DNA of 24,000 bases, from positions 2,837,407 to 2,861,406 of the forward strand of contig NC_019680.1 of NCBI RefSeq assembly GCF_000316685.1, written 5' to 3'. Under the pieces are notes generated by a model. That model was given only the letters and a program-made list of their open reading frames with translations, was not told where the DNA came from and made no database searches. Position numbers and translations under genes: made by a program. Numbering within the stretch: position 1 is the stretch's first letter; every line of letters begins with the position of its first letter. Below, in pieces: positions 5,828 through 22,643 of this stretch. This DNA is from Synechococcus sp. PCC 6312 (GTDB lineage Bacteria; Cyanobacteriota; Cyanobacteriia; Thermosynechococcales; Thermosynechococcaceae).

Positions 5828-6733
5828 TCAGGCTGATTTCGGCATATCAGATTCTTGGATATATGGCATAACTTCGTGTAGGACTTCTTTCATAAGTTCA
5901 GACTCACGGAGGCTTCCGCAGATACCGCTATAGAGGTTTGGCTTCCATCCATTAAGTTCATCGCAGTAGATCATGGTGTTGCAATGAAGTTTGGCCATCA
6001 TGATCATATTTCTACGGATCATGGCCTTAATGGCCCACTTAATCTTGAGGTCATCTTTGAGGTGCAGTTGACTGACTGGACCGGACTTGCCAGGGAGGTT
6101 ACGAAGTTTGGATTCAATGCGGTAGTATGTCCATTTTTGGGTATTGTACTTGCGGATATTGGCATACTTAGGAGCGATCCATTCCTTTTTGAAGGACTGA
6201 ATGAGGGTCTTAATTTCGGGTTGGCTCCAGACTTTGATCGGCTTTGCCGACTTATGGATAACGAGCTTATCGCCTGTTAGCCATTCCGACTCGGTTTGGG
6301 TGACGATTTCTACGAAGGACTTGAGTTCGTTGTGAGAGAACTTGTAAGTATAGACTTCACGCCCACTCCAGTTTTCTTTCTGGCTTTTATTGCTGCTTTT
6401 TACATGGTCAGCAACGATTAGTGTTTTCTGGGCCAACTCCCATGCTTTTTTTAGGGTTTCGACTCGTTCCTCCCAGGTTTCGATCACGTTCAGAACATAG
6501 GTCATGGTTACAATATCGGCGGGTTCGAGTGGGGTGGGGAAGTAGTAGGGGTCATAGCATTTTGACTTAAAGCCAAGTTCATTCAGCCATTCGGTGTCTT
6601 TTCCATACCCGCAGCCAAAATCCAGGTGCGACTGGCTTGGGTGGATCATCATGTTTTTGATCATCAATCTGACGGTACTTGAAGGATGCTTTCGCTTTGG
6701 AGCAGACTTATGGCGATTAGACTTGATTAGCAT
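5828..6733 (-). CDS. Class I SAM-dependent methyltransferase, N-terminal domain, with an uncharacterised C-terminal half (301 aa)
   Basis: Motif I LDFGCGYGKD followed by an acidic-loop-like …CYDPY…. The substrate (DNA, RNA or small molecule) cannot be told from the sequence. Confidence 0.8.
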   Translation of the reverse strand: MLIKSNRHKSAPKRKHPSSTVRLMIKNMMIHPSQSHLDFGCGYGKDTEWLNELGFKSKCYDPYYFPTPLEPADIVTMTYVLNVIETWEERVETLKKAWELAQKTLIVADHVKSSNKSQKENWSGREVYTYKFSHNELKSFVEIVTQTESEWLTGDKLVIHKSAKPIKVWSQPEIKTLIQSFKKEWIAPKYANIRKYNTQKWTYYRIESKLRNLPGKSGPVSQLHLKDDLKIKWAIKAMIRRNMIMMAKLHCNTMIYCDELNGWKPNLYSGICGSLRESELMKEVLHEVMPYIQESDMPKSA

Positions 6734-7568: not shown

Positions 7569-7982
7569 TTACAGCGGTATCTGGTATCTCCGTTCAGGAT
7601 TCTTTTGTGAATGTGCCTTGTGACCATGACTCCGAGGTTGGAAGCCCATTTTTGTCATGATCAGTTTCCAGTTTCTGTCATGTCCAATTCTTTTTTTTGG
7701 CCATAGGCGACAGCAAATGGTATGGGCTAATTCATGGGCATAGACTTGGGGCAGTTCTGACGGGTTTTCGGAGAGTAGGGGTAGATTTAATTCAATTTTG
7801 TCTTTACTGGCTCTCCCGGCTGTTGTTTTAAGGCGAGTATTGTATTTAACGGTAATGGGTTTTTCGGTGATCATGGCGATTATTTTGGCTGAGAATTGAC
7901 GCTTCAGTTTTTCCATGATGCCTTGGTGAATTGTCCGGATTCTTACCTTAGTTTTCTGGTCAATTCCAACAAATATTAGCAT
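7569..7982 (-). CDS. SprT-like zinc metallopeptidase domain protein (137 aa)
   Basis: N-terminal …NTRLKTTAGRAS…IELN… and the HExxH motif YAHELAHTIC match the SprT-like family pattern. AAGGAG SD upstream. Confidence 0.8.
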   Translation of the reverse strand: MLIFVGIDQKTKVRIRTIHQGIMEKLKRQFSAKIIAMITEKPITVKYNTRLKTTAGRASKDKIELNLPLLSENPSELPQVYAHELAHTICCRLWPKKRIGHDRNWKLIMTKMGFQPRSHGHKAHSQKNPERRYQIPL

Positions 7983-8808: not shown

Positions 8809-10086
8809 TTAGAAGACATAGGCATAACCGTCTTTTTTGTGCATGGCTTTGCAGTATTTGTGGCTGATACCTGCCACTCTTCCAGTTGCCGTGGCTATGT
8901 CAAAACTGCCAGAGGCTCGACAAAGAACCCGACCCACATAGAAGCCGATTTTCTTGCCTGCCGTAACGGTCGCTCTGACAATATCGCCAGTTTGAAAGCC
9001 TTTATGAATCTGTACTCTGGACTTATGGCGAGTCGAAAAACCAAACTTGTCAGTCCCACACATCTGCCGTGTGCCGTGACCTTTGGCGGTAATGAGCAAC
9101 GGCTTTGAAGTCAGGACTTTGAGCGCATCAACCTGACCCACACAAGCGGCATCCAACCAATGAGCTTTGGGCAGGTCTAAGCGGGTGCGGTTGAATTTAG
9201 TTTGTCCACCCGTCCCTGTCGTGAGTGGCAACCCCGTCGCTTTCAGTGCATTGAATAACGCCCATCGGGTAGAGTTGACTGCTGCTGCATCCTTGAGAGG
9301 GGCTTTAGCCTTTCTCAGAATCCGTTGTAGTAACTCAGGCTTACCGAATAGGAAGTCTCGAATGTCCTGATTTCCCTTGCTTTGGTTACAGGCATGACAA
9401 GCCATTGTGAGGTTAGAAACTCGGTCAGTTCCGCCTCTCGACCTGGGGTGAATATGCTCTACTTCTAAAGGGACATCTTTAGTTCCACAGTAAGTACATT
9501 TTCTGCCCCACTTTTCTAGTAGATACTCTCTGACTTCGTAGCCTTGTAATTCCCCTTGTTGGTACTCAATGCCTGAGATTTCAGGATTTTGTAACTTCTG
9601 TAGGTCAAACCGTACCAACTCTTGAGCGATACTGCCAAGGGGAGCTAGATTTCTGAGCCGATTTACCCAGGTCAGCACCGTATCAACTCGATGTTTCAGG
9701 CTAGGAGCAAGCCAACCATCAGGGCGATTACGATTTAGAAAACGGGGCTGACGATAACGGGTTTTCCGATTTCGCCTCCCACGCCGTAATTGACGACGAG
9801 ACAGCAAGGCATCTTTAATCTGTTGCCCCCGGTGCTGCAATTCGGCTCCAAAGATGATTTTGTTGCCTTGTTTAATTGCAATTCCAGTAACTTTAGAACC
9901 GGGGTCTAATTTGAGTTCTAAGTCTTGCACGGGGACATCAGGATGAGCTTCTTTCAAGATGAGGGTAAATGGAAAACGACGATATACTGCCGCTTTTCCT
10001 TGGTTGAGTAGATGACGAGCCTTCCCAGGATGAACGGGATCAAGCGGTCGTTTTTGGGTATCGAGAACAAAGATAAAATTGGACAT
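8809..10086 (-). CDS. iscB: IscB RNA-guided nuclease (OMEGA system; RuvC-HNH-RuvC with an N-terminal PLMP domain), 425 aa
   Basis: PLMP-type N-terminus VLDTQKRPLDPVHPGKARHLL. RuvC-I LKLDPGSKVTGIAI. Arg-rich bridge helix RRQLRRGRRNRKTRYRQPRFLNR. HNH CTYCG…EVEHIHPRSRGG…CHACNQSKGN. RuvC-III HWLDAACVG. ATG at 10086 with a GGAG SD; the track's GTG at 10155 lies in the omega-RNA region. Confidence 0.93.
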   Translation of the reverse strand: MSNFIFVLDTQKRPLDPVHPGKARHLLNQGKAAVYRRFPFTLILKEAHPDVPVQDLELKLDPGSKVTGIAIKQGNKIIFGAELQHRGQQIKDALLSRRQLRRGRRNRKTRYRQPRFLNRNRPDGWLAPSLKHRVDTVLTWVNRLRNLAPLGSIAQELVRFDLQKLQNPEISGIEYQQGELQGYEVREYLLEKWGRKCTYCGTKDVPLEVEHIHPRSRGGTDRVSNLTMACHACNQSKGNQDIRDFLFGKPELLQRILRKAKAPLKDAAAVNSTRWALFNALKATGLPLTTGTGGQTKFNRTRLDLPKAHWLDAACVGQVDALKVLTSKPLLITAKGHGTRQMCGTDKFGFSTRHKSRVQIHKGFQTGDIVRATVTAGKKIGFYVGRVLCRASGSFDIATATGRVAGISHKYCKAMHKKDGYAYVF

Positions 10087-10340
10087 TGAAAGTCTCCGTA
10101 AAACGGGTAATGTGTTCCTCGCCAATGTTTTTAAGGCTTGTTTGGCTAACGACACTGCTTTACCCCTCGTAAGGCTGTTTAATCGCTAACGACAGAGCTA
10201 CAAACTGGAAAGCATTTGTAGGTGTCATGACCTTAAAAACGTAGTCAGTCAAGACTTAGGCTGGTCAACTAACTGAAGCTAGAGGCATGAAGCCCCATTA
10301 CTTCAGTGCGGGGTGCTGACTCAGACTGAAAGACCGTAGC
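10087..10340 (-). ncRNA. Putative omega-RNA (HEARO-type) scaffold of the IscB element; 5' end and guide not resolved
   Basis: Position only. IscB omega-RNAs are encoded directly 5' of, and overlapping, the iscB start. The region is ORF-poor with local hairpins (for example CTTCAGT…ACTGAAG at about 10272-10310). I could not verify the consensus structure by eye. Confidence 0.55.
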
Positions 10341-10664: not shown

Positions 10665-10997
10665 TTAACTGGTGTAACGTTCAAATTCTTCAGCAATATC
10701 TTCAGCTTCTAGCTGAGATTCAATGATCTGGACTTTTTTGTTTGTGATCAGGACGTACATTCCGAGAGAGTCTTGGGGCAGTTTCAGCACTTCGATGACA
10801 TTGTGGGTGATCTGGCCAATCCAGTAGTAGTTGTCTGATTTTTCCCAGATTTGTGACAGGAAGTGTTTTTCGGCTTCATCTGGGTTGTCGAAGATGTTGG
10901 TTATCACTCCCTCGATCAGTGTTAGCCATTGCCCCTGGATTTCAGGATGGGTGCTTCTGGGGGAGGCTTGGCAGATTCCGGTATAGTTTTTGTCCAT
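10665..10997 (-). CDS. Hypothetical protein (110 aa)
   Basis: ORF track. AAGGA SD upstream. Bracketed by the two GTTCTAGGGGT palindromes. Confidence 0.75.
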   Translation of the reverse strand: MDKNYTGICQASPRSTHPEIQGQWLTLIEGVITNIFDNPDEAEKHFLSQIWEKSDNYYWIGQITHNVIEVLKLPQDSLGMYVLITNKKVQIIESQLEAEDIAEEFERYTS

Positions 10998-11040: not shown

Positions 11041-11074
11041 TTGTTCTAGGGGTGGGCCATTACCCCTAGAACAA
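11041..11074. repeat. Perfect 13-bp-arm palindrome TTGTTCTAGGGGT-N8-ACCCCTAGAACAA
   Basis: Read directly from the sequence. Followed on the plus strand by CTTTTTT. Confidence 0.9.
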
Positions 11075-11086
11075 CTTTTTTATGGG

Positions 11087-11686
11087 TCAGCGGTTCATTC
11101 TACGGAAGTCCCAAGGTTTTATCTGGTCTGACTTCCAGACACCAACGCCTTCTTTTCGGGCTTCTTGTTCGGCTTGATCAACTTTGGCAAAACTAGGGCA
11201 GTTATTAGCGAACTTGCGGTAAGCGTAGGCCATGCCTTTGCGGGTCATGGTTTCTTGGACAAGGGTATTGCCCGTCCAGACTTCAGCGACCTTACGGCCA
11301 TAGCGGTCAGTGTTGGTAATGCGAAGGTCAACACGGTAGTCAGCTTTTTTTAAGATATTGCGGAGTGTATTACGGGATGCTTCGCCCAAGGGTTGTTTAA
11401 GTTCTGGTGCGTCAATACAGGCGAAGCGGACTCGGATTTCTTCGTTGCCATTGGTGGCTCGGATGGTATCGCCATCATGGATAGAGCGTTGAACAACTTG
11501 CCATTCGGTTAGTCCAGTTCTGGTTTGGGTGGGTGTTCCGATTTCGTTGACAACGGCTTCACGTTCGGATGGACTAATCATACGTCCACTAGTTGTTCTT
11601 GGATTGAGGGCTTCAATCTCGGACATTGGGACAGCTTGCGATACGCATCCGGTTAGGAAAATTGCTAGGAGTGGCCAATAACGCAT
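11087..11686 (-). CDS. Secreted thermonuclease (staphylococcal nuclease/SNc fold) lipoprotein, 199 aa
   Basis: Lipobox LTGC in MRYWPLLAIFLTGCVSQ. SNase core …DGDTIRA…IRVRFACIDAPE…GEAS…RYGRKVAEVW…. Confidence 0.88.
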   Translation of the reverse strand: MRYWPLLAIFLTGCVSQAVPMSEIEALNPRTTSGRMISPSEREAVVNEIGTPTQTRTGLTEWQVVQRSIHDGDTIRATNGNEEIRVRFACIDAPELKQPLGEASRNTLRNILKKADYRVDLRITNTDRYGRKVAEVWTGNTLVQETMTRKGMAYAYRKFANNCPSFAKVDQAEQEARKEGVGVWKSDQIKPWDFRRMNR

Positions 11687-11784
11687 TTTATAATTGATGA
11701 GCTAATTATAAATGAACTTTAGCATGGTCTTGACTTTCTGAAAAATTGCTGTATAGGGTTGCCGCAGAGTTTTGAGATTTATTT

Positions 11785-12450
11785 ATGCAGCGACTGATGG
11801 TAGCTCTGTTAGCGGTCATGGCCATGGCCATGACCGCTGGCGAAGTATTTGCAAATCCGTTCAAGATTCCCAATTCTACGGGTGATCGGGTAACGTTTCG
11901 GATGGATGGTTTAACGCCTGGTTCTGAGATTCAGGTCGGTGCCGGGGATACGAAAGCGAAACTTACCGCTTATACGATCAACAACTACGGGCGGATTAGT
12001 CCCCCGGCTGGTGCGACCAAGGTACGGAAATGGGGCGATACAACTTGGATCAACCTATCCAGTGCGACCGATCTGACTGATTCGGTCAAGGTTGCAACCG
12101 TTCAAGGTCAGCGTCAGTTTGCGCCTAAAGTGGCGGGTCAAAACTTACCGACTATCCCTTCCTTTATCAAACTTGGTACGGCGTTTTACTGGAATCCTGG
12201 CACTACGCTTCCAACTGATGGAATCTTCATTGAGTTTGATGTTCCGGTACAGCGTGTTGCGAAAGTTAATGCGTGTGGCCAGCTTTCAATCTCGGTTAGT
12301 TCGGTGAACGGCAGTGTCAATTACGTTCCTGCTGTGACGGTAAACGGAACAAGTTATACGATTGCAAGCCTTCCGGTCGGAAATCCGGCTAACTTATCTC
12401 GTTGCGTCAAGTACGGCGAGTCCACTTACGTCCGGTACGTTCCGCAGTAG
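11785..12450 (+). CDS. Secreted protein, paralog 1 of a four-member tandem family (221 aa)
   Basis: Signal peptide MQRLMVALLAVMAMAMTAGEVFA|NP. Family motifs NACGQLS…C.KYGESTYVRYVPQ. Confidence 0.85.
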   Translation: MQRLMVALLAVMAMAMTAGEVFANPFKIPNSTGDRVTFRMDGLTPGSEIQVGAGDTKAKLTAYTINNYGRISPPAGATKVRKWGDTTWINLSSATDLTDSVKVATVQGQRQFAPKVAGQNLPTIPSFIKLGTAFYWNPGTTLPTDGIFIEFDVPVQRVAKVNACGQLSISVSSVNGSVNYVPAVTVNGTSYTIASLPVGNPANLSRCVKYGESTYVRYVPQ

Positions 12451-12458
12451 AGGTACTG

Positions 12459-13076
12459 ATGTTAAGACCTGTCCTATTGGCTTTGTTTTGGTTGTTGGGT
12501 GCGTTGCCTGTGGTAGCGAATCCGGTACGAGTGCCGAGTGCCAGTGGTAACTCGATGCGCGTCAGTTTTGAAGGCTTCAATCCAAACAGTGAGGTACAGG
12601 TCGGCGTTGGCCTACGGCGATACCGAGCATCGCTGTCTATTAAACAGGGTGGGATGTCTTTTTTCCGGTTCACGTCACCTGAAGGAGCGACAGCGGTTCG
12701 TGTGGTTGGCCAAGAGAACTGGACGGCCCTGAGCCTTATTTCAGATCAGACCGCAAACTTGCGGGTCACTGGTACTGGTGAACAGCGTCAGTTTCTGGCG
12801 AAGAATCCGAAGGATTTTTGGTCAACCTTTGTTCCTTCTTTCAACGGGTATATGAAGGTGGGTCGGTCTTTCTTTTATCGGGGCAATGGAGACTCAATCA
12901 TGTTTGAGTTCAATGTCCAGGCTTACCGATTAGCAAAGGCGGATGCGTGTGGGCGAATTTCGCTGCTCTATCCGGTATCGGGTTCACGGGCCATCTCATC
13001 GGTCACGGTTGGCCAAACCTTTTACAGGCTTGACAGCGTTCCGACTGCCAGCAGATTGCCTGAATGTTCTCAATAG
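12459..13076 (+). CDS. Secreted protein, paralog 2 (205 aa from ATG 12459)
   Basis: GAGG SD precedes ATG 12459. Signal peptide MLRPVLLALFWLLGALPVVA|NP. DACGRIS…PECSQ. The track start at 12402 overlaps paralog 1. Confidence 0.8.
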   Translation: MLRPVLLALFWLLGALPVVANPVRVPSASGNSMRVSFEGFNPNSEVQVGVGLRRYRASLSIKQGGMSFFRFTSPEGATAVRVVGQENWTALSLISDQTANLRVTGTGEQRQFLAKNPKDFWSTFVPSFNGYMKVGRSFFYRGNGDSIMFEFNVQAYRLAKADACGRISLLYPVSGSRAISSVTVGQTFYRLDSVPTASRLPECSQ

Positions 13077-13095
13077 TTTTTCTTAGGAGTTGATG

Positions 13096-13824
13096 ATGTT
13101 TAATCGTATTTTTGTCCTTACTGCATTGCTCAGTCTTTTACCGACTGCGGTTTTTGCGGCTCCGACTAAGTTTACGAATCCTACAACCAACCGTGCCGAG
13201 GTAAATATCACTGGTTTTACGGCTGGTCAGGAAGTACCTATCGAATTTCAGAGTGTGACTAAATCGGTAAAAGCGAGTTGCCTGATTGGGTCGGATCGGT
13301 ATGCCTTGGTTTCCAGCGATGTTGCGGCCGAGATTAACCAGCCCTTTGAAGCCTTTGCTACTGCGGGTGGTACCCCTGCCATCAAAGTGAATGGTGGTGA
13401 GAATATTTGGGGTTCTGAGGAAGGTATGACCAATGGCCGTTGTGCCTTTGTTAACGGTACTCGCGTGTTCGTTGCCCCCAACGCACAGGGACAGGCTGTA
13501 CCTGTGACTGGAAACTACGGCCCTTTATTTGTTACCTCAACGGTGAATGCTGAAGGTAATGTAACGGGTAAGAGTTCCCTTTGGGTACGCGTTCCTACCT
13601 GGGATGCAGTACCAGTCCAAATCGTTGGTGGGAATACACAGAAGAAATACAAGGCGAATAGCTGTGGCATCGTCCGGTTTGCAGAAACTGAGACTGCTCC
13701 TTTAGCTCCTACCTTCAAAGTTGGTTCTACCATTTACACCGTTGCTAACTTAAGCACTGCTTACCCGCCCAAGTGCTATAAGACTGGCGAGACTTCTTAC
13801 ACTTTGTTTGTTCCGGCTCAGTAA
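13096..13824 (+). CDS. Secreted protein, paralog 3 (about 242 aa; start at 13093 or 13096)
   Basis: AGGAG SD at 13085-13089. Signal peptide MFNRIFVLTALLSLLPTAVFA|AP. C-terminus NSCGIVRFAETE…PPKCYKTGETSYTLFVPAQ. Confidence 0.88.
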   Translation: MFNRIFVLTALLSLLPTAVFAAPTKFTNPTTNRAEVNITGFTAGQEVPIEFQSVTKSVKASCLIGSDRYALVSSDVAAEINQPFEAFATAGGTPAIKVNGGENIWGSEEGMTNGRCAFVNGTRVFVAPNAQGQAVPVTGNYGPLFVTSTVNAEGNVTGKSSLWVRVPTWDAVPVQIVGGNTQKKYKANSCGIVRFAETETAPLAPTFKVGSTIYTVANLSTAYPPKCYKTGETSYTLFVPAQ

Positions 13825-13840
13825 TAGTTGTGATCTCACT

Positions 13841-13866
13841 GCGGCCTAGCTATAGGCCGCTTTTTT
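13841..13866 (+). terminator. Intrinsic terminator (plus strand)
   Basis: GCGGCCTA-GCTA-TAGGCCGC followed by T6. Confidence 0.85.
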
Positions 13867-13880
13867 GTGTAGGTGAACCT

Positions 13881-14627
13881 ATGCTTAAGACTCTATCCCT
13901 TTCACTTTTCTGGGTTTTTCTTCCATTGGTGGCATTAGCCCAACCGACTAAGTTTATGAATCCCACGACTAATCGGTCTGAGGTGAATATTACTGGATTC
14001 AGTCCAGGGCAGGAAGTGACTGTTGAGCTTCAGGGCGTAACCAAGACGGTTCGTGGTTCTTGTTCGGTTGGCAGTGACATTTACGCTTTACTTTCTAGCG
14101 ATGGGATTGGTGAGTTTCAGGAGCCTTTTAATGCCTATCTTGCGGCTACTGGCAATCAACCGGAGATTCGTCGTGGTGGTGTGAACCTTGGCAATCTGCT
14201 TGATGTTGAACCTATTTATAACGGTCGGTGTTCCTTTGTGAATGGGGCCAGGGTTTTGATGGGTGTTTATGGAACTGAGCGGATGACTGTTATTCCTCAG
14301 TCACAGATCAATGGTGTTGATCTACTGATGTTTACACCTGTTGACCAGAATGATAATCCGGTTCCTGGTAGTAAGCGGCAGCTTTGGGTTCGTGTACCGA
14401 ATTGGGAGCTAACTCCGATTCAAATTGTTGGTGGTTTTCTGGAGCGGAAGTACAAGGCGAATAACTGTGGCATTGTCCGATTTGCTGAAACAGCTACATC
14501 ACCTTTGCCTGAGACATTCAAGCTTGCTTCTACGGTGTATCAGGTTTCCAACTTATCCACTGCTTACCCGCCCAAGTGCTATAAGACGGGCGAGACTTCT
14601 TACACCCTGTTTGTTCCTGCTAACTGA
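13881..14627 (+). CDS. Secreted protein, paralog 4 (248 aa from ATG 13881)
   Basis: Signal peptide MLKTLSLSLFWVFLPLVALA|QP. The N- and C-terminal thirds are near-identical to paralog 3 and the centre is divergent. The track start at 13830 spans the terminator. Confidence 0.88.
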   Translation: MLKTLSLSLFWVFLPLVALAQPTKFMNPTTNRSEVNITGFSPGQEVTVELQGVTKTVRGSCSVGSDIYALLSSDGIGEFQEPFNAYLAATGNQPEIRRGGVNLGNLLDVEPIYNGRCSFVNGARVLMGVYGTERMTVIPQSQINGVDLLMFTPVDQNDNPVPGSKRQLWVRVPNWELTPIQIVGGFLERKYKANNCGIVRFAETATSPLPETFKLASTVYQVSNLSTAYPPKCYKTGETSYTLFVPAN

Positions 14628-14642
14628 TTCCTACTGTTATTG

Positions 14643-14667
14643 GGGAGGATTAAACCCTCCCTTTTTC
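14643..14667 (+). terminator. Intrinsic terminator (plus strand)
   Basis: GGGAGG-ATTAAAC-CCTCCC followed by T5. Confidence 0.75.
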
Positions 14668-14784
14668 TATGCGTTACTTTATCTTGCACATGGCGATTGG
14701 ATTTGTTCTAGGGGCATTGCCGTTGGGATTGTTAACGGGGTCACATATTCCAGACCCAGATATATTTTTCAAGGTTCAGAAGGA

Positions 14785-16338: not shown

Positions 16339-17583
16339 TTATAGTGCTTCTTCAGCCGGTCGCAGTTGAGCATCTGGGTTCAGTTGATTTTCACCAGTGG
16401 TAAGGATTTTGATTTGCTCTAAGTTTTTACGCATAGCGGCCCAGGCTTTGAAGGCATTGCTGGTGTATTGGTCGGCTTGGTTGACACGGCTGAGGTATTG
16501 ATCAGTTGACCCTGCGCCGTAGCGATAGGTAACTTCGTAGAGCTTGAGCCGTGTTTGCTCACGGCGAGCGAGTTCCTGGGTTGCTTGAAACTCTCGTTTG
16601 AACTGGTCGAAAGCAAGAACATCGAGCGTCACCTTATCTCGGATACGACCGGCCAGTTCTGCTCGGTTGCGTTGCAGTTCAGCGACTTTGATTTGGAGGT
16701 CGCCAATGGCGAGGCTGCGGGTAGCAGCGGCTTGTGAGCCACCAAATAAGTTAGTGATGAGTGGGATACCGATGAGGCTGAGAGCTTCCGCAATCCCTGT
16801 GCCGGTAAACAGACGGCCAATCTTATCGAAGGGCGATTCAGCGGTTGGCCCTGATGTGGTGACGGTTGTTTGTCGTCCGGTGAATGGGTCGGTGACGACC
16901 TGGGTGGTACCGAGTCTGGCACTTGGCCCAGCATCAAAGCTGAGATAACTCTGAAGTGCAGGGGTAAAGACCTCTAAGTTAACGAGCTTCTGGTTATTGC
17001 TCTGTGCTTCTTGGATGCGAGTATTGGCTTCTTCAATCCGGGCATCTACTTCCTTCAGGATTGGAGAGCGAGCAATCGCTAACTCTTGCAGCCGCTTTAC
17101 ACATTCCTGGGTACTGTCCAGGCAAGGAAGGCCGCCGAGTATGCCCTGCCATAGGTCGTTATTGAACTGAAACCGAAGCACTTCCTCCATGCTGGCAGCG
17201 GTTTGTCCGCCCTGAAATGGATTTTCAGGCAGTCGTGGCGCAGCGACTGGCGTTCTGGCTGGTATGGTTCCGCCACTTGGCATGGTTGTTGTACTTGGCC
17301 TCACACCACTTGGGACGGGAATGTTAACCGGCCGTGTGCTTGGTTGGGCTGGTCTGGTTGTTGACCCTGGACTGGTTGGGGTGGGGGGTGGGGATTCTGG
17401 CTCATCAAGGGTGGGTGGTGCGACTTCGCCACCACCGCCATCATCATCGGTTGTGATGACTGCTGGTTCTTCAGCTTCAGCGGGTTGGCTATTGGGCTGT
17501 GCCTTGGATGTCAAGGGTAAGCTCAACACGAATGTTAGTATCAGACTGCTCAAGCCAACGGATACGAGTGACTTTACCTGCAT
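16339..17583 (-). CDS. Secreted TolC/OEP-like coiled-coil protein with a Pro/Thr-rich linker (414 aa from ATG 17583)
   Basis: Signal peptide MQVKSLVSVGLSSLILTFVLSLPLTSKA|QP. Two OEP-like helical repeats (…ARSPILKEVDARIEEANTRIQEAQ… and …GAGSTDQYLSRVNQADQYTSNAFKAW…). The family assignment is by eye and tentative. Confidence 0.7.
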   Translation of the reverse strand: MQVKSLVSVGLSSLILTFVLSLPLTSKAQPNSQPAEAEEPAVITTDDDGGGGEVAPPTLDEPESPPPTPTSPGSTTRPAQPSTRPVNIPVPSGVRPSTTTMPSGGTIPARTPVAAPRLPENPFQGGQTAASMEEVLRFQFNNDLWQGILGGLPCLDSTQECVKRLQELAIARSPILKEVDARIEEANTRIQEAQSNNQKLVNLEVFTPALQSYLSFDAGPSARLGTTQVVTDPFTGRQTTVTTSGPTAESPFDKIGRLFTGTGIAEALSLIGIPLITNLFGGSQAAATRSLAIGDLQIKVAELQRNRAELAGRIRDKVTLDVLAFDQFKREFQATQELARREQTRLKLYEVTYRYGAGSTDQYLSRVNQADQYTSNAFKAWAAMRKNLEQIKILTTGENQLNPDAQLRPAEEAL

Positions 17584-18439
17584 AGGGACTCCTGACAGTG
17601 GATAGGGATTGTAATTGACTTTCGATCTGGTCTTTCTGGGTTTGCAGTTGGGCAAGTTGGAACGTCTGTTCCTGAACCGCACGGTCTGCATCTATTTGGG
17701 ATTGTTGGGATTGGGCTTGGAGCTTGGCCAGTTCTAACTGGTGCTGGTACTCGGTGTATTGGCGTTGCTGTTGCGCTCTGACTAACTTAGCGTTGGCCAT
17801 ACTGACCGCAGCGACTTTGTTGTTGACCATTTCCTTGGCAATTTCGACCTGTCGCTGCTCATGCTCTAAGACTGGTGGTGGAACTTCGCCTCCCATTGTT
17901 TGTAGAACGCCCATTTTCCGTTGTTGCTGGTTAAGAGCTTCCTGGGCTTGGTTTAGTTCGAGTTGCGCTCTTTGAACATCTGCTTGCTCTGATAGGTAGT
18001 CGGGGGATGGTAGTTGCCGGATTGTCATGGGTTGGGGTCGGTTTACCTGTCGGGCTTGCATCCGGTTAATTTGGACGGCCAGTTGCTGCTTCCGGTAGGT
18101 GAGTACCTCCTTGGCCTTGGCCCGATCAGCGAGGATTTGATTTCGTTGGATCGTGTCGCCCTGCCGCACCTTGAGGTCGCTTGGGTCAGTGATGGAGAGT
18201 TGGATTTTGAACCGCTTTGGGTTCTCGGTTCGTGTTCCCTGTGGTTCCGTTCCTGGGTCTATTGGTTCCGTTGTGTCTGTCGGGGGTTCGTCCATATCTT
18301 CATCTGCTGATTGAGCGATGGAGATATTAGGGATGATGATCGTATGGCTCATCACGAATAGGGTGGCCGAGATTGCACCGATGGCAACTAAGCCATTCAC
18401 AATTTGACCGAGGGTAATTTTGGCAATGAACTTTAGCAT
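17489..18439 (-). CDS. HlyD-like membrane-fusion / periplasmic adaptor protein (316 aa)
   Basis: N-terminal TM segment. Lipoyl-like half-motifs LKVRQGDTIQRNQILA and SPYAGKVTRI flank a long Gln-rich coiled coil. Confidence 0.8.
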   Translation of the reverse strand: MLKFIAKITLGQIVNGLVAIGAISATLFVMSHTIIIPNISIAQSADEDMDEPPTDTTEPIDPGTEPQGTRTENPKRFKIQLSITDPSDLKVRQGDTIQRNQILADRAKAKEVLTYRKQQLAVQINRMQARQVNRPQPMTIRQLPSPDYLSEQADVQRAQLELNQAQEALNQQQRKMGVLQTMGGEVPPPVLEHEQRQVEIAKEMVNNKVAAVSMANAKLVRAQQQRQYTEYQHQLELAKLQAQSQQSQIDADRAVQEQTFQLAQLQTQKDQIESQLQSLSTVRSPYAGKVTRIRWLEQSDTNIRVELTLDIQGTAQ

Positions 18440-18442
18440 GGT

Positions 18443-19570
18443 TTACTCTGCCAATGGTAAGAGAGTGGGTTCGATTGGGATAACGTCATGGGAATGTTGC
18501 TCTGCCCGTTGGTAGTAAGGAATAATGTCGGTCTGTTTCGCATCATTCCCAAAGCGGACAAGGGCTTGCAGGGGCTTGAGGGCTGAGACTCTCGTAGCGG
18601 CAAAGCGAAACTTTTTGGCTACCTTCTCAACCTCGACCTGATCCACAGGCAAGACAATCTTGGTGGCTGTATTACTGAGAACGTCTGGGCTAAGGTGACG
18701 CTCCGACTGACTAGCTACGACAAGATTCAGGCCGTACTTACGCCCGTCACAGACAATCCGATCCAGGGCAGGAGACTTACTGAGTTCCTTGGCTTCATCA
18801 ATGAAGATGAATGTTCTAGGGGTAGCAGCTTCACCATAGAGGCGATGGTTATCCATCAGTTGCTTGGCCAGACTTTCGGCGGCAATCGCCCCGATTTCTG
18901 GGGGTAGTTTCTGCATATCTACCCGAATGAGTGGATGGTTAAATGGCATATTAGTCCGATTGAAAATGCCATAAGTGAAGGTAGCCGCTAACTTTAGCTT
19001 CAGCTTCTGCGACTCTTTGCAACCATCCCTGCAGCGTTGCTCCAGTTCGTTTTGGACATGGCTGAAGTTGGGTGGTTCATTCCGCCAGGTTTCGACACTT
19101 TTGATTCCGAATCGGGCATAGAGTTCCCCTAGAACATCAAGGATTAGACCTTCCTGGTTTGGGCCAATCTGTAGGTTACGTTTCAGGATTTGACCGACCG
19201 TAATAGCTTGGATTTTAGGGCCGCCGCCTTCCGGGTCAAGGTTGAGCATCAGTGGGTTAATGCCGTACTCACTGTTGGCATGGAGCGGGATATGTTTCTC
19301 ATGGGGTAGGTACTGGTCGCCATGAAAATCAACAATGATGATTTGGCATTCTTGCTTTTTGAAAAGCTCCCAAGCGATTGCTTTGAGCGTCTGCGTTTTG
19401 CCACTGCCACTGGCTCCAATAATTGCAACATGGCCATTGGGTAAGTCGTTGTAGTTCCAGTGGGTGTTTGTACCCAAATGGATGCCATTGCTATTGAGGG
19501 TTGTCACTGATGATGTTGACGTTTTTTGAAAGGGGACTAAGCGTGGGCTTGGCAAAGTACGGGGGGGCAT
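18443..19570 (-). CDS. HerA/FtsK-superfamily (DUF87-like) P-loop ATPase (375 aa)
   Basis: Walker A GASGSGKT. Walker B FIFIDEAKEL. …GRKYGLNLVVASQ… is typical of HerA/DUF87 ATPases. No TM segment. Confidence 0.85.
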   Translation of the reverse strand: MPPRTLPSPRLVPFQKTSTSSVTTLNSNGIHLGTNTHWNYNDLPNGHVAIIGASGSGKTQTLKAIAWELFKKQECQIIIVDFHGDQYLPHEKHIPLHANSEYGINPLMLNLDPEGGGPKIQAITVGQILKRNLQIGPNQEGLILDVLGELYARFGIKSVETWRNEPPNFSHVQNELEQRCRDGCKESQKLKLKLAATFTYGIFNRTNMPFNHPLIRVDMQKLPPEIGAIAAESLAKQLMDNHRLYGEAATPRTFIFIDEAKELSKSPALDRIVCDGRKYGLNLVVASQSERHLSPDVLSNTATKIVLPVDQVEVEKVAKKFRFAATRVSALKPLQALVRFGNDAKQTDIIPYYQRAEQHSHDVIPIEPTLLPLAE

Positions 19571-19572
19571 GG

Positions 19573-20610
19573 TTACTCCTTGGGAACAACAGTACGGATG
19601 AGAATATTGCCAGTTACATCTGCACTGATGTTGGCCACATCTTGCGGTCTAGCAGATTTCAATCTGAGGATGCCTGTGTTATCCCTGGTGGGTTGAAACG
19701 TGACCGGATTATATCGGTCGATCAACGGGATTAAGTTTAGGCTCTCGCTATCGGCGACTGCAACCGTCCCGGTCAGGTAAGTCCGTTTTGGATACTGGTC
19801 TAAGTTGAGGTCTGAGATAGGTTGTTCTTCCAGTTGAACTTGTTTGCTTTCACTGGTCACGGCTGGGCCACGTTGGAGCCGGATACTGCCGATTTTGATT
19901 TGGGCGTTTTGAGACCGTCCGGCTCGGTAAAGGATACCGCCCTCACTTTGTACCAGTAGGTCGCTACCCGTTAGAGCTTGGACAACTTCAAACTTGTCTC
20001 TGATATTTTGCTGAGTAGCTTCATCCTTCCCAGAAATTTCGACATAGAGGATATTGTTCTGTCCTTTGGAGTTGACTTCTTCGATCACGCCTTCCGGTAG
20101 TCCGAGGAACTGGTTAAAGGCCATGACGATACCGCCTTGGGAGTTGATGTTGAGGATCAGTATCCCGATGGACAAGATAAAGGCAAAGACAAATGCTTCG
20201 GCAACTGAGTTTGTTCCCAGGCGTAAGTGCGGGTTGCCTGGGATCACCAGTCTGGCTTGACTGGGATAGAAGGCGGCCACTCCAGTCTTAGTGAAGACAT
20301 CACCAAACCAGCCCATGAAGTATCCAATCATTAAGGCTGCATAGACTGTGCCGTTGATCAGAAGGACGGGGCTAAGGATGACGGCCACGATTGCGGTTGC
20401 GATAAAGCTATGAGTGACAGAGCGATGCGGGAACTGACGTTCTAAGGTCATGCTGATTGGGAACAAGATGCGACCTGTCAATGATTTACTGGTATCCACA
20501 TCAGGGAGTTGTGAAGCGACTGCTGCCGTTAACAGGATGATTGGGTTACTACTTCCCAATATCCCTGCGACTGATGTGGCAGCGAGTACGGCGTGAGTGA
20601 TGGACTTCAT
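19573..20610 (-). CDS. Membrane protein: N-terminal DUF457/YdjM-like metal-dependent hydrolase domain fused to an unknown beta-rich C-terminal domain (345 aa)
   Basis: …THAVLA…QLPDVD…RSVTHS…WFGDVFTKTG… with 4-5 hydrophobic segments. The last roughly 170 aa have no recognisable family. Confidence 0.75.
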   Translation of the reverse strand: MKSITHAVLAATSVAGILGSSNPIILLTAAVASQLPDVDTSKSLTGRILFPISMTLERQFPHRSVTHSFIATAIVAVILSPVLLINGTVYAALMIGYFMGWFGDVFTKTGVAAFYPSQARLVIPGNPHLRLGTNSVAEAFVFAFILSIGILILNINSQGGIVMAFNQFLGLPEGVIEEVNSKGQNNILYVEISGKDEATQQNIRDKFEVVQALTGSDLLVQSEGGILYRAGRSQNAQIKIGSIRLQRGPAVTSESKQVQLEEQPISDLNLDQYPKRTYLTGTVAVADSESLNLIPLIDRYNPVTFQPTRDNTGILRLKSARPQDVANISADVTGNILIRTVVPKE

Positions 20611-20837
20611 GACTCTGGTTCCATCTCCACGCAGATTAAGGTGGTGTAGCCTTCGTTTTTTCCATCAAACGACACAATGCCTTGGCCAGACATTTGCTCT
20701 ATGAGGGCATTCATCACGCCTTCGGCCACTGCCATTCGGTTTTTGAGGGGATCAGACGAGCCAACGGTGACAGTGAGTTTGACCGTTTCTACCGTTTCGA
20801 TGGTCGTTCCGGGTTTGTATTTGAGCATGAGGGTCAT
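20607..20837 (-). CDS. Small hypothetical protein (76 aa)
   Basis: ORF track. 4-nt overlaps with both neighbours. Confidence 0.65.
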   Translation of the reverse strand: MTLMLKYKPGTTIETVETVKLTVTVGSSDPLKNRMAVAEGVMNALIEQMSGQGIVSFDGKNEGYTTLICVEMEPES

Positions 20838-21061
20838 AGCACTTCTCCTAGATTCATGTCCCGGTAGGACTTATCGACAATCTTGGCGTTCCAGTTTTTG
20901 GTCTTGGCTTCTAGTTCTATCTCCCAAACTTTGAGGTAGGGGCGCGACAGCAGGGGCGCATTACCGCGTATTCGATAATATTTTTCAAGCAGTGTTTTGG
21001 TCAGTAGTTGTTTGTAAGACTCTGGTAGGTTGCTTCCTTGGCAGAACAGCACTGTTTCCAT
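20834..21061 (-). CDS. Small hypothetical protein (75 aa)
   Basis: ORF track. 4-nt overlap with the downstream gene. Confidence 0.65.
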   Translation of the reverse strand: METVLFCQGSNLPESYKQLLTKTLLEKYYRIRGNAPLLSRPYLKVWEIELEAKTKNWNAKIVDKSYRDMNLGEVL

Positions 21062-21064
21062 GAT

Positions 21065-22024
21065 TCATCGCCCCAAGTGTCTTGATTTTCTTGGCATAGC
21101 GGTCACAAGCAGTCTCACGACACCGACTGTAACGGTGAGGATGCCGCCCATGAGGTAAAGGCTGGTGCTATTAAAGCCAAGGCCGATGAAGCGGACAATG
21201 ACAAAGCACAGCATGACAGCTATCAGGAATGGAGTCCCGTCTATCCATTGCGTATGGTCGGGCGATAGGTCATCCAGACCGAGATATTCTTCCTTGACGA
21301 CTCGCTTGGCCAACATCGGATTACCGCCACATCGTTCTTGAAGTTCAGCGACCTTGGCAGGGTCTAAGTCAATGCCAAGGTCTTGGGCGGTTTCATACAT
21401 GATTTGCCGAATCCACTTATTTTCGAGCGGTGGCAGTTCGATTCGGGGTAGCCGAATGAAAATGTCTTTGGGCGGCGGGTGGGTGGCGAACAGGAGGATA
21501 TGCTGATTCTTCTTGTGTAACCGTTCAAGCCAGTACCGGAATGTGGCGGCTATTTTATGAGCGTCATCAAAGATGAGGAAGGCCAGGTTATCTTGCAACC
21601 ACTGAAGAACGGCATCCTGTAGTTCTTGGATGTTCATCCGTTTCCCTTCCAAGTTGTAGGTATCTATCCCGAGCGTTTCAGCGATTTCCATCATGTTGAC
21701 CCTGACGGTATTGGGGGTAATGAGGCAACAACGGAAGCCTTCATCGGTTAATTGCTTGTGGACACTTTCGGCTAGGTAGCTCTTTCCGACTCCAACTTCG
21801 CTGACGACCAGGAGGCTGCTGTCTGCTTTTAGTGACGCAACGATGTGATCGAAAATTGATCGTCTATACAGACGGCTAGGAAGGGATTCTTCTGATGTGA
21901 TATTTACGGCTCCAAGTGACTCGGACTCGCCCGTTACTTGGTCAACGGCGTAGGTATAGAGTCGCCTGGTACCGTCTTTGAGGTTTTTAATGTGTCGTCT
22001 GATAGATTTTGCCACTGCTAACAA
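21065..22024 (-). CDS. AAA+/P-loop ATPase with two C-terminal TM helices (319 aa; TTG start per track)
   Basis: Walker A SEVGVGKS. Walker B FLIFDDAHK. C-terminal hydrophobic FLIAVMLCFVIVRFIGLGF and LMGGILTVTVGVVRLLV. Confidence 0.8.
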   Translation of the reverse strand: MLAVAKSIRRHIKNLKDGTRRLYTYAVDQVTGESESLGAVNITSEESLPSRLYRRSIFDHIVASLKADSSLLVVSEVGVGKSYLAESVHKQLTDEGFRCCLITPNTVRVNMMEIAETLGIDTYNLEGKRMNIQELQDAVLQWLQDNLAFLIFDDAHKIAATFRYWLERLHKKNQHILLFATHPPPKDIFIRLPRIELPPLENKWIRQIMYETAQDLGIDLDPAKVAELQERCGGNPMLAKRVVKEEYLGLDDLSPDHTQWIDGTPFLIAVMLCFVIVRFIGLGFNSTSLYLMGGILTVTVGVVRLLVTAMPRKSRHLGR

Positions 22025-22643
22025 ACCTCTTAAATTCAGCGACCATAGAACTGGAGCAACTTTTCCCGGTTTGATTTTTAACGAAGGTTATGAGTTCGTC
22101 ATACTTGCGAAGCTTGTTGTGCTGCCAAGCGATGTAGAGGAGGCCAAAGACGGTGCGCCTACGGCGGAGGTCGCAGAGCTTTCTGTGGTTACAGTGGAAC
22201 TCAAAGGGTATGGGAGTCTCCTCGATGATGCGTTGCCGTTCTTGATAGGCCTCGTGTTTAGACTTGGGCTTGGGTCTGGGTTTAGGTTTAGATTTTTTGT
22301 CAGGCTTTTCGAGTTCGGTTGGGATAAAAGAGTGTTGGAGGAAGGGAAGCCACCAATGGGGGTTATGGGGCCGGTGTTGTTCTAATGTGGCTTGTGGTAG
22401 GAATCGAGCTTGAGGTTGTGGTTCTTTATCATCCCTTGCAGGCATGAGTTGGAGTTTAGCGGGTGGGAGAAGGGGGATGGGGTCATCACCAAAGGCCTTA
22501 ACGGCTTCCCAAGCGGGTTCGATAGTGGTTTGGATGAGGGTTTCTGCCTTATGTCGGATTGCAGTTCCCCACCGTTCGAGAGTATTAAGGGTAGATCGGT
22601 AAATCTGACCCAATGTAATCTGCTGCCAGGGCGTGTTGTTCAT
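21987..22643 (-). CDS. Hypothetical protein with a Lys/Pro-rich central linker (218 aa from ATG 22643)
   Basis: ORF track (TTG at 22658; ATG at 22643). Overlaps both neighbours (38 nt and about 59 nt). Confidence 0.65.
   Translation of the reverse strand: MNNTPWQQITLGQIYRSTLNTLERWGTAIRHKAETLIQTTIEPAWEAVKAFGDDPIPLLPPAKLQLMPARDDKEPQPQARFLPQATLEQHRPHNPHWWLPFLQHSFIPTELEKPDKKSKPKPRPKPKSKHEAYQERQRIIEETPIPFEFHCNHRKLCDLRRRRTVFGLLYIAWQHNKLRKYDELITFVKNQTGKSCSSSMVAEFKRFVSSGKIYQTTH

What the first reader, a model, noticed from the sequence alone, without database searches (positions are those of the whole stretch)
11785..14627. Four tandem paralogs of an unrecognised secreted protein family with conserved ends and a hypervariable centre
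This is the only plus-strand block. It holds four consecutive genes, each with a Sec signal peptide cleaved before (N/A/Q)P. Each has the N-terminal motif NP.K(F/I).NPT(T/G).R.EV.ITGF..GQEV and a C-terminal module with a conserved Cys pair (N.CG(I/Q)…..C.K(T/Y)GE(T/S)(S/T)Y.(L/R)(F/Y)VP).

Paralogs 3 and 4 are nearly identical at both ends. At the DNA level there is an identical run around 13757-13803 versus 14563-14609. They diverge strongly in the middle third. Paralogs 1 and 2 are more distant.

This pattern is typical of diversifying surface or receptor-binding proteins. Recombination between the conserved ends could swap the centres.

The block is adjacent to a secreted SNase lipoprotein (11087-11686). 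I cannot assign the family to any known fold from the sequence.
Basis: partly seen in the sequence, partly recalled or inferred. Interest (0 to 1): 0.7.

Follow-up and report, generated by a model that had tools for sequence, protein, structure and literature searches.

The report
Secreted protein quartet on plasmid-like island
Four neighbouring genes in Synechococcus PCC 6312 encode exported proteins of an undescribed cyanobacterial family that always sits beside a nuclease and a TolC/HlyD-like envelope gene cluster on plasmids, so they are probably surface parts of that machine, and their centres are stable rather than fast-evolving.

Summary
The four plus-strand genes are real and homologous (pairwise E 2e-10 to 3e-86). 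The window is the Synechococcus sp. PCC 6312 chromosome.

The genes match nothing in Pfam, NCBIfam, PHROGs, PADLOC, PDB sequences, or Foldseek searches of PDB and BFVD. They are not orphans, however. An exhaustive profile search found about 80 relatives. These are about 210 aa long, carry a signal peptide, and consist of two (sometimes four) modules, each with one Cys pair. Every named source is cyanobacterial.

The family gene holds a fixed position in a conserved plasmid-type cluster: thermonuclease, family gene, then TolC-like, HlyD-like, DUF87/HerA-like ATPase, YdjM-like hydrolase and AAA_22 ATPase. This cluster occurs on Nostoc, Tolypothrix and Synechocystis PCC 6803 pSYSX plasmids and is integrated here. 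In other elements the family domain is fused to discoidin-type carbohydrate-binding heads.

The centre is not hypervariable. A syntenic four-gene array in a metagenome relative keeps each centre (70-78% aa identity, dN/dS 0.12-0.20). Only the 3' ends of genes 3 and 4 show concerted evolution.

Best reading (inferred): surface scaffold or adhesin subunits of that envelope apparatus.

The parts
11785..12450 (+). g1: 221-aa exported family protein. Leader ends VFA|NP. It has one Cys pair (C164, C207) and the C-terminal tail STYVRYVPQ.
   Evidence: ORF. It is identical to the NCBI hypothetical protein P0004. Family HMM E 1e-29. Ortholog P0005 is 68% identical.
12459..13076 (+). g2: 205-aa exported family protein. 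It is the only tail-less type in the family, ending 2 residues after the second Cys.
   Evidence: Its ortholog (P0006, in L001) is also tail-less. The tail survey of about 100 family representatives is. An RBS (AGAGGT) precedes ATG 12459.
13096..13824 (+). g3 (Syn6312_2904): 242-aa exported family protein with two Cys pairs and an enlarged paralog-specific centre.
   Evidence: P0001 is 100% identical. AlphaFold2 model: pLDDT 79.8, pTM 0.71, all-beta plus one helix; ends 94-97, centre 46-78.
13881..14627 (+). g4: 248-aa exported family protein, 53% identical to g3.
   Evidence: P0003. A partial ortholog on L002 is 69% identical.
13841..13866 (+). Terminator-like GC hairpin plus T-run between g3 and g4. 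It is absent from the relative, where the g3'-g4' gap is 12 nt.
   Evidence: MFE -18.6 kcal/mol, z -2.2.
14642..14668 (+). Terminator-like hairpin after g4, marking the end of the + strand block.
   Evidence: weak, z -1.7.
11087..11686 (-). Thermonuclease (SNase) lipoprotein, transcribed divergently from g1 across a 98-nt spacer (11687-11784). It is the conserved partner of the family gene.
   Evidence: Pfam SNase 3e-18. Homologs lie next to the family gene in L001, L006/7, L008, L009, L011, L014, L016-L018 and L020.
16339..17691 (-). TolC-like outer-membrane factor with a Pro-rich N-terminal region.
   Evidence: Pfam OEP E 7e-4, below the cut-off. Plasmid homologs are annotated 'TolC family protein'.
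17489..18439 (-). HlyD-like coiled-coil periplasmic adaptor.
   Evidence: The plasmid homolog is annotated 'HlyD family secretion protein'. There is a weak Biotin_lipoyl_2 hit in the L008 homolog.
18443..19570 (-). DUF87 / HerA-FtsK-TrwB-type ATPase.
   Evidence: Pfam DUF87 and TrwB_AAD_bind. PDB relatives include HerA and TrwB. PADLOC mad8/HerA.
19573..20610 (-). YdjM-like membrane-bound metal-dependent hydrolase.
   Evidence: Pfam YdjM 3e-21. Homologs occur on 62 plasmids.
21065..22024 (-). AAA_22 ATPase with a hydrophobic C-terminus, followed by a 223-aa hypothetical protein (21987-22658) and a wHTH protein (22585-22926).
   Evidence: synteny.

Best explanation
The four genes encode Sec-exported, disulfide-stabilised, all-beta proteins of an uncharacterised family found so far only in cyanobacteria. 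The family's unit is a module of about 90 aa. It opens with an F-K-D-x-x-G-x-[VI]-[YF]-[VI]-x-G-[LF]-[TS]-P strand region and closes with N-x-C-G ... G-T-x-Y-T-x-x-S-L-P ... P-x-C. After the last module comes a tail of 9-24 aa carrying [YF]-x-P.

The family gene is the fixed 'outer' gene of a plasmid-type cluster. The order is thermonuclease lipoprotein, family gene or genes, then, convergently, TolC-like, HlyD-like, DUF87/HerA-like ATPase, YdjM-like membrane hydrolase and AAA_22 ATPase. In PCC 6312 this cluster is integrated in the chromosome, next to plasmid leading-region-type genes (SprT-like, YAcAr, methyltransferase).

Most likely (inferred, not shown), the proteins are extracellular or surface scaffold/adhesin subunits that work with that envelope-spanning apparatus. 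On this view the conserved N-terminal strands and the C-terminal module are the shared assembly or docking part. The paralog-specific centres of g3 and g4 would provide distinct, stable binding surfaces. In other elements that role is taken by discoidin-type lectin heads fused to the same domain. Tail-less g2 would be a specialised subunit, for example a terminal one.

The array is old. Each paralog is under purifying selection, and gene conversion homogenises only the 3' ends of g3 and g4.
For: Shown:
- Homology of the four genes.
- A wider family of about 80 profile hits, 79 of 104 proteins having two modules and 10 having four, with Cys pairs 37-40 residues apart and signal peptides.
- Every named source is cyanobacterial: 7 of 7 genome loci and 10 of 10 plasmids.
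- All 9 loci with the full TolC-like/HlyD-like/YdjM/AAA_22 cluster carry a family gene at the TolC-like end, and 8 of 9 have an adjacent thermonuclease. Four clusters lacking the TolC-like gene also lack the family gene (annotations).
- The family domain forms the C-terminal 210 aa or so of 548-583-aa proteins with one or two F5/8 type C domains and a Pro/Thr linker. In L018 it is joined to a Pro-rich Cys-repeat extension.
- The relative's contigs L001 and L002 hold the SNase gene and all four paralogs in the same order.
- Ortholog dN/dS is 0.11-0.21, and 0.12-0.20 in the centres.
- The 3' ends are more alike within a genome than between orthologs.

Inferred: the extracellular location, the scaffold/adhesin role, and any functional coupling to the TolC/HlyD-like genes.
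Against: - There are no localisation, expression or phenotype data, and no literature was found.
- TolC/HlyD-type systems normally export cytoplasmic substrates that lack Sec leaders, so coupling to Sec-exported proteins is atypical.
- Several family members lie on contigs without the cluster within 10 kb (L003, L004/5, L006, L012, L013).
- The AlphaFold2 model gave no significant Foldseek match to adhesins or pilins (best E 0.06, TM 0.2 or less).
- PCC 6312 has no lectin-fusion partner.
- dS between orthologs is near saturation (about 0.8-1.3 over the mature proteins, higher in short segments), and only one ortholog set exists.
Confidence: 0.45

Rival explanations
1. One reading: these are diversifying receptor-binding proteins whose hypervariable centres are shuffled by recombination between the conserved ends.
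For: The g3/g4 centres are only 37% identical with indels, while the ends are 61-75% identical. There are exact runs at the 3' ends: 47/48 nt here and 55 nt in the relative.
Against: The centres are orthologously conserved (78% and 70% aa identity, nucleotide identity 76-86%) with dN/dS 0.12-0.20. The paralog order and identity are unchanged in the relative. No reverse transcriptase, invertase or shufflon-like inverted repeats are present.
Confidence: 0.06
2. They are periplasmic or outer-membrane accessory parts of the TolC-like/HlyD-like/HerA-like apparatus itself, for example a cap, plug or periplasmic adaptor. Alternatively they are its exported cargo, such as a toxin or bacteriocin-like protein. 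In neither case would they be adhesins.
For: Strict synteny with the TolC-like gene. Sec leader and disulfides fit a periplasmic folding step. MacAB-TolC-type pumps are known, from general knowledge, to expel periplasmic disulfide-bonded peptides.
Against: Fusion to lectin heads through long Pro/Thr linkers is typical of extracellular, surface-displayed proteins. Family members also exist without the cluster nearby. No immunity-like partner gene was identified.
Confidence: 0.22
3. They are surface or entry exclusion factors, or an envelope shield, encoded by the mobile element. They would act together with the secreted nuclease to block incoming DNA, rival plasmids or phage.
For: The family gene and the exported thermonuclease lipoprotein form a conserved divergent pair. 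The context is a mobile element carrying ArdA, ParDE and integrases.
Against: No PADLOC match. Known exclusion proteins are usually lipoproteins or inner-membrane proteins. The lectin fusions are not explained by this view.
Confidence: 0.12
4. They are phage-derived tail-fibre or receptor-binding proteins inside a prophage remnant.
For: They are all-beta proteins with divergent centres, and the top (non-significant) Foldseek rows are viral capsid or spike proteins.
Against: There is no significant PHROG match; the only hit is g1 to an unknown-function PHROG at E 0.005. The IMG/VR pattern scan found no relative. No BFVD hit has E below 0.1. Sec signal peptides are atypical of virion proteins. 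The neighbours are plasmid-type genes such as ParAB and CyRepA.
Confidence: 0.03

Closest known systems
Modular surface adhesins and pilus systems built from a shared subunit domain plus a lectin-headed variant (for example FimA/FimH-type chaperone-usher pili, or type V pili with tail-less tip subunits). This comparison rests on general knowledge.
   Same: A small subunit gene is followed by a larger gene that carries the same domain plus carbohydrate-binding heads. The proteins are exported, beta-rich and disulfide-bonded. Several paralogous subunits lie in tandem. One paralog lacks the terminal strand region (g2).
   Different: No chaperone or usher domain was found among the window ORFs scanned. 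The proteins lack the lipoprotein signal used by type V pilins. There is no fold match. No polymerisation has been shown. The neighbouring machinery is TolC/HlyD-like plus a HerA-like ATPase.
EbfG1-4 of Synechococcus elongatus PCC 7942: four tandem small secreted matrix proteins exported by a PteB/HlyD/TolC-type system. This is recalled from general knowledge and was not tested here.
   Same: A cyanobacterial tandem quartet of small secreted paralogs, genetically associated with type-1-like export components.
   Different: EbfG proteins are much smaller and use a double-glycine leader rather than a Sec signal. No homology was tested or claimed. The present family has Cys-pair modules and sits on plasmid-type elements.
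The Thermus thermophilus TdtA DNA-donation ('transjugation') module (PMC5365140).
   Same: A mobile-element-borne FtsK/HerA-family ATPase with a partner nuclease, compared with the DUF87 ATPase and thermonuclease here. The AAA_22 and YdjM backbone also occurs on Thermus plasmids.
   Different: TdtA is about 570 aa with a NurA partner, whereas the ATPase here is 375 aa with an SNase lipoprotein. No secreted family protein or TolC/HlyD pair is described for TdtA. Homology to TdtA was not tested.
MPF_C, the cyanobacterial type IV secretion (conjugation) class (PMC4027160).
   Same: Both are cyanobacterial, plasmid-borne envelope machinery for which no pilin homolog is known.
   Different: MPF_C is defined by VirB4 together with VirB3/6/8/9/10 homologs. 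Pfam found none of these domains in the cluster genes scanned, and the plasmids carrying this cluster are typed non-mobilizable.

Membership tests
Unnamed cyanobacterial two-module Cys-pair secreted family (defined here) | C-terminal module N-x-C-G ... G-T-x-Y-T ... P-x-C, detected by the family HMM | tested here: met
   All four genes match at E 5e-25 to 2e-35. C-module domain hits range from 5.6e-13 to 1.3e-24.
Unnamed cyanobacterial two-module Cys-pair secreted family (defined here) | A second (N-terminal) module carrying its own Cys pair | tested here: inconclusive
   g3 and g4 have an N-module Cys pair (C62/C116 and C61/C117), but only a weak HMM hit. g1 and g2 have no N-module Cys.
Unnamed cyanobacterial two-module Cys-pair secreted family (defined here) | C-terminal tail of 9-24 aa with [YF]-x-P after the last Cys | tested here: met
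   Met by g1, g3 and g4. Not met by g2 or its ortholog, the only tail-less type among about 100 representatives.
Unnamed cyanobacterial two-module Cys-pair secreted family (defined here) | Position between a divergent thermonuclease gene and a convergent TolC-like/HlyD-like cluster | tested here: met
   Seen in the window and in 8 other loci.
Any curated protein family (Pfam, NCBIfam, PHROGs, PADLOC) or solved structure | A significant profile or sequence match | tested here: not met
   The 'Pizza' hit (2e-5) disappeared when the deeper profile was used.
Chaperone-usher or type V pilins | Usher and chaperone genes nearby, or a lipoprotein signal; a pilin fold | tested here: not met
   No such domains were found in the scanned window ORFs. 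The leaders lack a lipobox Cys. The pilin rows in Foldseek have E of 0.24 or more and TM of 0.22 or less.
Type 1 secretion substrates (RTX or GG-leader) | No Sec leader; a C-terminal secretion signal with RTX repeats, or an N-terminal double-glycine leader | tested here: not met
   All four have classical N-terminal hydrophobic leaders with AXA-type sites. There is no RTX Pfam hit.
Programmed variation systems (DGR, shufflon, cassette conversion) | A reverse transcriptase with template/variable repeats, or an invertase with inverted repeats; centres that vary between close relatives | tested here: not met
   The repeat search found only the paralog ends. No RT or recombinase was found. The centres are conserved in orthologs.
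Ig-like / beta-sandwich superfold | A two-sheet sandwich with a cross-sheet disulfide | tested here: inconclusive

The most novel reading that the evidence does not exclude
The quartet may be the cell-contact module of an undescribed, plasmid-borne, envelope-spanning DNA-donation machine in cyanobacteria. The machine would comprise a HerA/FtsK-like ATPase, a YdjM-like membrane protein, an AAA_22 ATPase, an HlyD-like adaptor, a TolC-like channel and a surface thermonuclease. It would move plasmids typed 'non-mobilizable' between cells, possibly relying on the recipient's natural competence, as in Thermus transjugation. The backbone occurs on plasmids of Synechocystis 6803, S. elongatus, Picosynechococcus 7002 and Thermus, which are known from general knowledge to be naturally transformable.
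Probability: 0.15. Interest if true: 0.85.

Novelty: new variant of a known kind. Interest (0 to 1): 0.5.

Why it matters
Cyanobacterial plasmids are mostly typed as non-mobilizable, and many of their backbone genes are annotated only generically. This work places an unannotated secreted family in a fixed slot of a conserved envelope gene cluster. The cluster is present in the model strain Synechocystis PCC 6803 (pSYSX), so the function can be tested genetically.

If the proteins are surface contact or adhesion parts of a plasmid-encoded trans-envelope machine, they would bear on how cyanobacterial plasmids spread and how cells aggregate. This also matters for the engineering of production strains.

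For the first-stage claim itself, the main result is corrective. The divergent centres reflect old, stable subfunctionalised paralogs, not a diversification system.

Tried and rejected
- Pfam, NCBIfam, PHROGs and PADLOC scans of the four proteins and ten relatives found nothing significant.
- PDB sequence searches with shallow and deep profiles: a 'Pizza' propeller hit (2e-5) vanished with the deeper profile, so I treated it as compositional.
- The first AlphaFold2 model (6-sequence alignment, pLDDT 69) and the second (82 sequences, pLDDT 79.8) were searched with Foldseek against PDB and BFVD. No hit had E below 0.06.
- The search for related loci with the broad alignment failed for lack of a conserved stretch. 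A subfamily alignment worked.
- tblastn of g3 against plasmids found nothing, whereas a mainstream family member found 10 plasmids.
- The IMG/VR scan found no relative.
- Literature searches for the cluster, for pSYSX locus tags and for exoproteome data found nothing relevant.
- I considered and rejected a DGR or shufflon mechanism, a prophage origin, and g2 being a pseudogene. Its short end is conserved in the ortholog, and its dN/dS is 0.20.
Full report
**Source and observation**

The window is part of the Synechococcus sp. PCC 6312 chromosome. Gene 3 is 100% identical to Syn6312_2904, which lies on a 3.70-Mb contig.

The + strand block holds four ORFs:
- g1, 11785-12450.
- g2, 12459-13076. 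The ORF opens at TTG 12402, but ATG 12459 follows an AGAGGT ribosome-binding site and matches the ortholog's start.
- g3, 13096-13824.
- g4, 13881-14627.

The four proteins are homologous well beyond chance: g3/g4 53% identity, E 3e-86; g1/g2 33%, 2e-28; g1/g3 26%, 2e-10.

Each begins with a hydrophobic leader ending VFA|NP, VVA|NP, VFA|AP or ALA|QP, and none has a lipobox. This rests on sequence inspection, since no signal-peptide predictor was available.

All four carry the C-terminal Cys pair. g2 lacks the K.GE..Y..VP tail.

The quoted identical DNA run is really 13755-13802 versus 14558-14605, with 47 of 48 bases matching.

g1, g2 and g3 are tightly spaced, each start preceded by a ribosome-binding site. 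A terminator-like hairpin (13841-13866) separates g3 from g4, and another follows g4.

The neighbouring gene at 11087-11686 (- strand) is an SNase-family lipoprotein (Pfam 3e-18, lipobox LTGC).

**Is the centre hypervariable?**

One ENA metagenome sample holds a relative with the same arrangement. Contig L001 carries the SNase gene, then g1' (68% aa identity) and g2' (69%). Contig L002 carries g3' (74%) and a partial g4' (69%).

The four-gene array therefore predates the split of the two lineages. g2' is also tail-less, so g2 is not a truncated pseudogene.

| Pair | First third | Middle third | Last third |
|---|---|---|---|
| g3/g4 (paralogs) | 61% | 37% (plus 16 gap columns) | 75% |
| g3/g3' (orthologs) | 81% | 78% | 73% |
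| g4/g4' (orthologs) | 74% | 70% | 79% |

These are amino-acid identities across thirds of the mature protein. Nei-Gojobori dN/dS between orthologs is 0.11-0.21 overall and 0.12-0.20 in the centres. One caveat is that dS is near saturation (about 0.8-1.3 over the mature proteins, higher in short segments).

The centres are thus paralog-specific and conserved, not hypervariable.

What does evolve in concert is the 3' end. In the relative, g3' and g4' share a 55-nt exact run, with 59 of 60 nt identical, where orthologs are 73-78% identical (Fisher p about 0.001). In PCC 6312 the last 96 nt are 81% identical between g3 and g4 but 71% between g3 and g3'. That difference is not significant on its own (p = 0.13).

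I found no reverse transcriptase or recombinase among the window ORFs scanned, and no inverted repeats around the centres.

**The wider family**

Word-indexed searches with g3 and g1 found only the PCC 6312 genes and the metagenome orthologs.

An exhaustive HMM search with a six-sequence profile found 80 proteins at E of 1e-3 or better. Nearly all are 197-240 aa long and start with a signal peptide. They have four Cys residues arranged as two pairs 37-40 residues apart. A subset of 395-432 aa has eight Cys.

A C-module HMM detects two copies in 79 of 104 proteins and four copies in 10. The family unit is therefore a module of about 90 aa with one disulfide.

In g1-g4 only the C-terminal module is clearly recognisable. 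The N-terminal half has diverged. g3 and g4 keep its Cys pair, but with an insertion of about 15 residues.

After the last Cys, every family representative has a 9-24-residue tail with a [YF]-x-P motif, except the g2 type.

None of ten diverse members, nor g1-g4, has a significant match in Pfam, NCBIfam, PHROGs or PADLOC.

A profile of 82 sequences finds nothing among PDB sequences.

**Genomic context elsewhere**

Every named source of the family is cyanobacterial. The seven genome loci include Egbenema, Leptolyngbyaceae and Chroococcidiopsis. The ten plasmids come from Nostoc, Anabaena, Tolypothrix, Fischerella, Calothrix and Microcystis. An IMG/VR scan found none.

Searching all fetched loci with the window's proteins (phmmer) and the family HMM, and reading the plasmid annotations, shows one conserved arrangement:
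- thermonuclease, divergent from the family gene;
- the family gene, sometimes followed by a second family-related gene;
- then, convergently, a TolC family protein, an HlyD family protein, a DUF87 ATPase, a metal-dependent hydrolase (YdjM) and an AAA/ATP-binding protein;
- often next to ParB/ParA.

This arrangement is seen in the window, in three chromosomal or MAG loci (L008, L009, L011), and on plasmids of Nostoc PCC 7524, Nostoc cf. commune, Tolypothrix PCC 7910, a Nostoc lichen cyanobiont and Synechocystis PCC 6803 (pSYSX).

All nine full clusters have a family gene at the TolC-like end. Eight of the nine have the adjacent thermonuclease; the ninth is cut at the record origin.

Four clusters lack the TolC-like gene (Gloeocapsa, S. 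elongatus, Thermus, Nitrosococcus), and these also lack the family gene. One Stanieria cluster with a short TolC-like ORF also lacks it.

The family also occurs without the cluster within 10 kb. Those loci still have mobile-element neighbours such as ArdA, integrases, ParDE and, again, SNase.

The window's island is therefore an integrated copy of a cyanobacterial plasmid module. It is flanked by SprT-like, YAcAr and methyltransferase genes.

**Clues to function**

In four loci the gene after the small family gene encodes a 523-583-aa exported protein. It has one or two F5/8 type C (discoidin) carbohydrate-binding domains, or an HpiC1-like CBM-type domain, followed by a long Pro/Thr/Ser linker. 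The family two-module domain forms the C-terminal 210 residues or so.

In Tolypothrix the family domain is N-terminal to a Pro-rich, Cys-repeat extension. On the Nostoc PCC 7524 plasmid a Wzy_C/O-antigen-ligase-family gene follows it.

A shared domain that carries varied binding heads on extended linkers is what one expects of an extracellular scaffold or anchoring module. I therefore read g1-g4 as surface scaffold or adhesin subunits associated with the TolC/HlyD-like apparatus. On this reading the conserved N-terminal strands and C-terminal module are the common assembly part, and the stable paralog-specific centres are the specificity part. Tail-less g2 may be a specialised terminal subunit.

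All of this is inference. Location, assembly and any link to export or DNA transfer are untested, and I found no literature on the cluster.

**Rivals**

- *Diversifying or cassette-swapping proteins.* Contradicted by the ortholog data.
- *A periplasmic accessory part or cargo of the TolC/HlyD-like system.* This remains a serious alternative, since synteny alone cannot separate it from my reading.
- *Exclusion or shielding together with the nuclease.* Possible, but unsupported by PADLOC and not explained by the lectin fusions.
- *Phage origin.* Unlikely: there is no PHROG, IMG/VR or BFVD signal, the leaders are Sec-type, and the neighbours are plasmid genes.

**Comparison with known systems and novelty**

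The nearest functional analogies are pilus or adhesin systems with a common subunit domain plus a lectin-headed variant, and the tandem secreted EbfG quartet of S. elongatus. Neither is a membership claim. Defining features such as usher and chaperone genes, a lipoprotein signal, a GG leader or a fold match were tested and not met, or could not be tested.

The accompanying ATPase belongs to the HerA/FtsK/TrwB clade. In Thermus, a HerA/FtsK-family ATPase with a partner nuclease drives DNA donation (PMC5365140). That motivates the more novel reading of an undescribed plasmid DNA-donation machine, with the family acting as its contact module. I give that reading about 15%.

The cluster is not MPF_C type IV secretion as defined in PMC4027160, because no VirB4-type components were detected.

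**Verdict**

The family is genuinely uncharacterised, but it is widespread and syntenically fixed on cyanobacterial plasmids. The 'hypervariable centre' interpretation is not supported. Interest is moderate. It is raised by the conserved, undescribed cluster, which is present in a tractable model strain.

Noticed in passing
window 8809-10320 (- strand): A complete IscB-type element. It comprises a 448-aa RRXRR + HNH protein (8809-10155) and, at its 5' end and overlapping the ORF start by about 50 nt, a full-length HEARO (omega) RNA (10107-10320, 161.6 bits, E 9e-35). It is absent from the syntenic metagenome contig L001, so it is probably a lineage-specific insertion into the island.
   Followed up: partly
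window 16339-22926 (- strand); L016-L020, L008, L009, L011: A conserved and apparently undescribed plasmid cluster: TolC-like, HlyD-like, DUF87/HerA-like ATPase, YdjM-like hydrolase, AAA_22 ATPase, a roughly 200-aa hypothetical protein and a wHTH protein. YdjM-like homologs occur on 62 plasmids, including Synechocystis 6803 pSYSX and pSYSM, S. elongatus, Picosynechococcus 7002, Thermus and Nitrosococcus; the AAA_22 + YdjM pair was confirmed in every locus I fetched. All but one of these plasmids are typed non-mobilizable.
   Followed up: partly
L008, L009, L011 versus the window and plasmid loci: The DUF87 ATPase gene is missing from the three chromosomal or MAG copies of the cluster (Egbenema, CCP2, Leptolyngbyaceae). 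It is present in the window and in all plasmid copies.
   Followed up: no
window 12459-13076 (g2) and L001 8832-9443: g2 and its ortholog are the only members among about 100 family representatives that lack the C-terminal [YF]-x-P tail. They also lack N-module cysteines. This points to a specialised role for this paralog.
   Followed up: partly
window 13825-13880 versus L002 767-780: The 56-nt g3-g4 spacer holds an 8-bp GC hairpin and a T6 run. It is absent in the relative, where the genes are 12 nt apart. It may uncouple or attenuate g4 expression in PCC 6312.
   Followed up: partly
window 11041-11074: A perfect 15-bp inverted repeat (TTGTTCTAGGGGTGG...CCACCCCTAGAACAA type) lies just downstream of the SNase gene. 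It is probably a bidirectional terminator between the SNase gene and the 110-aa gene at 10665-10997.
   Followed up: no
window 2738-3106, 5828-6733 and 7569-7982 (- strand): YAcAr (SLOG), Methyltransf_23 and SprT-like genes lie among many small unannotated ORFs. They resemble a plasmid leading-region or anti-defence block. YAcAr and SprT-like genes are also conserved on contig L001.
   Followed up: partly
L016 12767-13906 (Nostoc PCC 7524 plasmid): A Wzy_C/O-antigen-ligase-family gene lies directly after the family gene. Enzymes of this family include protein O-oligosaccharyltransferases, which hints that the family protein may be glycosylated.
   Followed up: no
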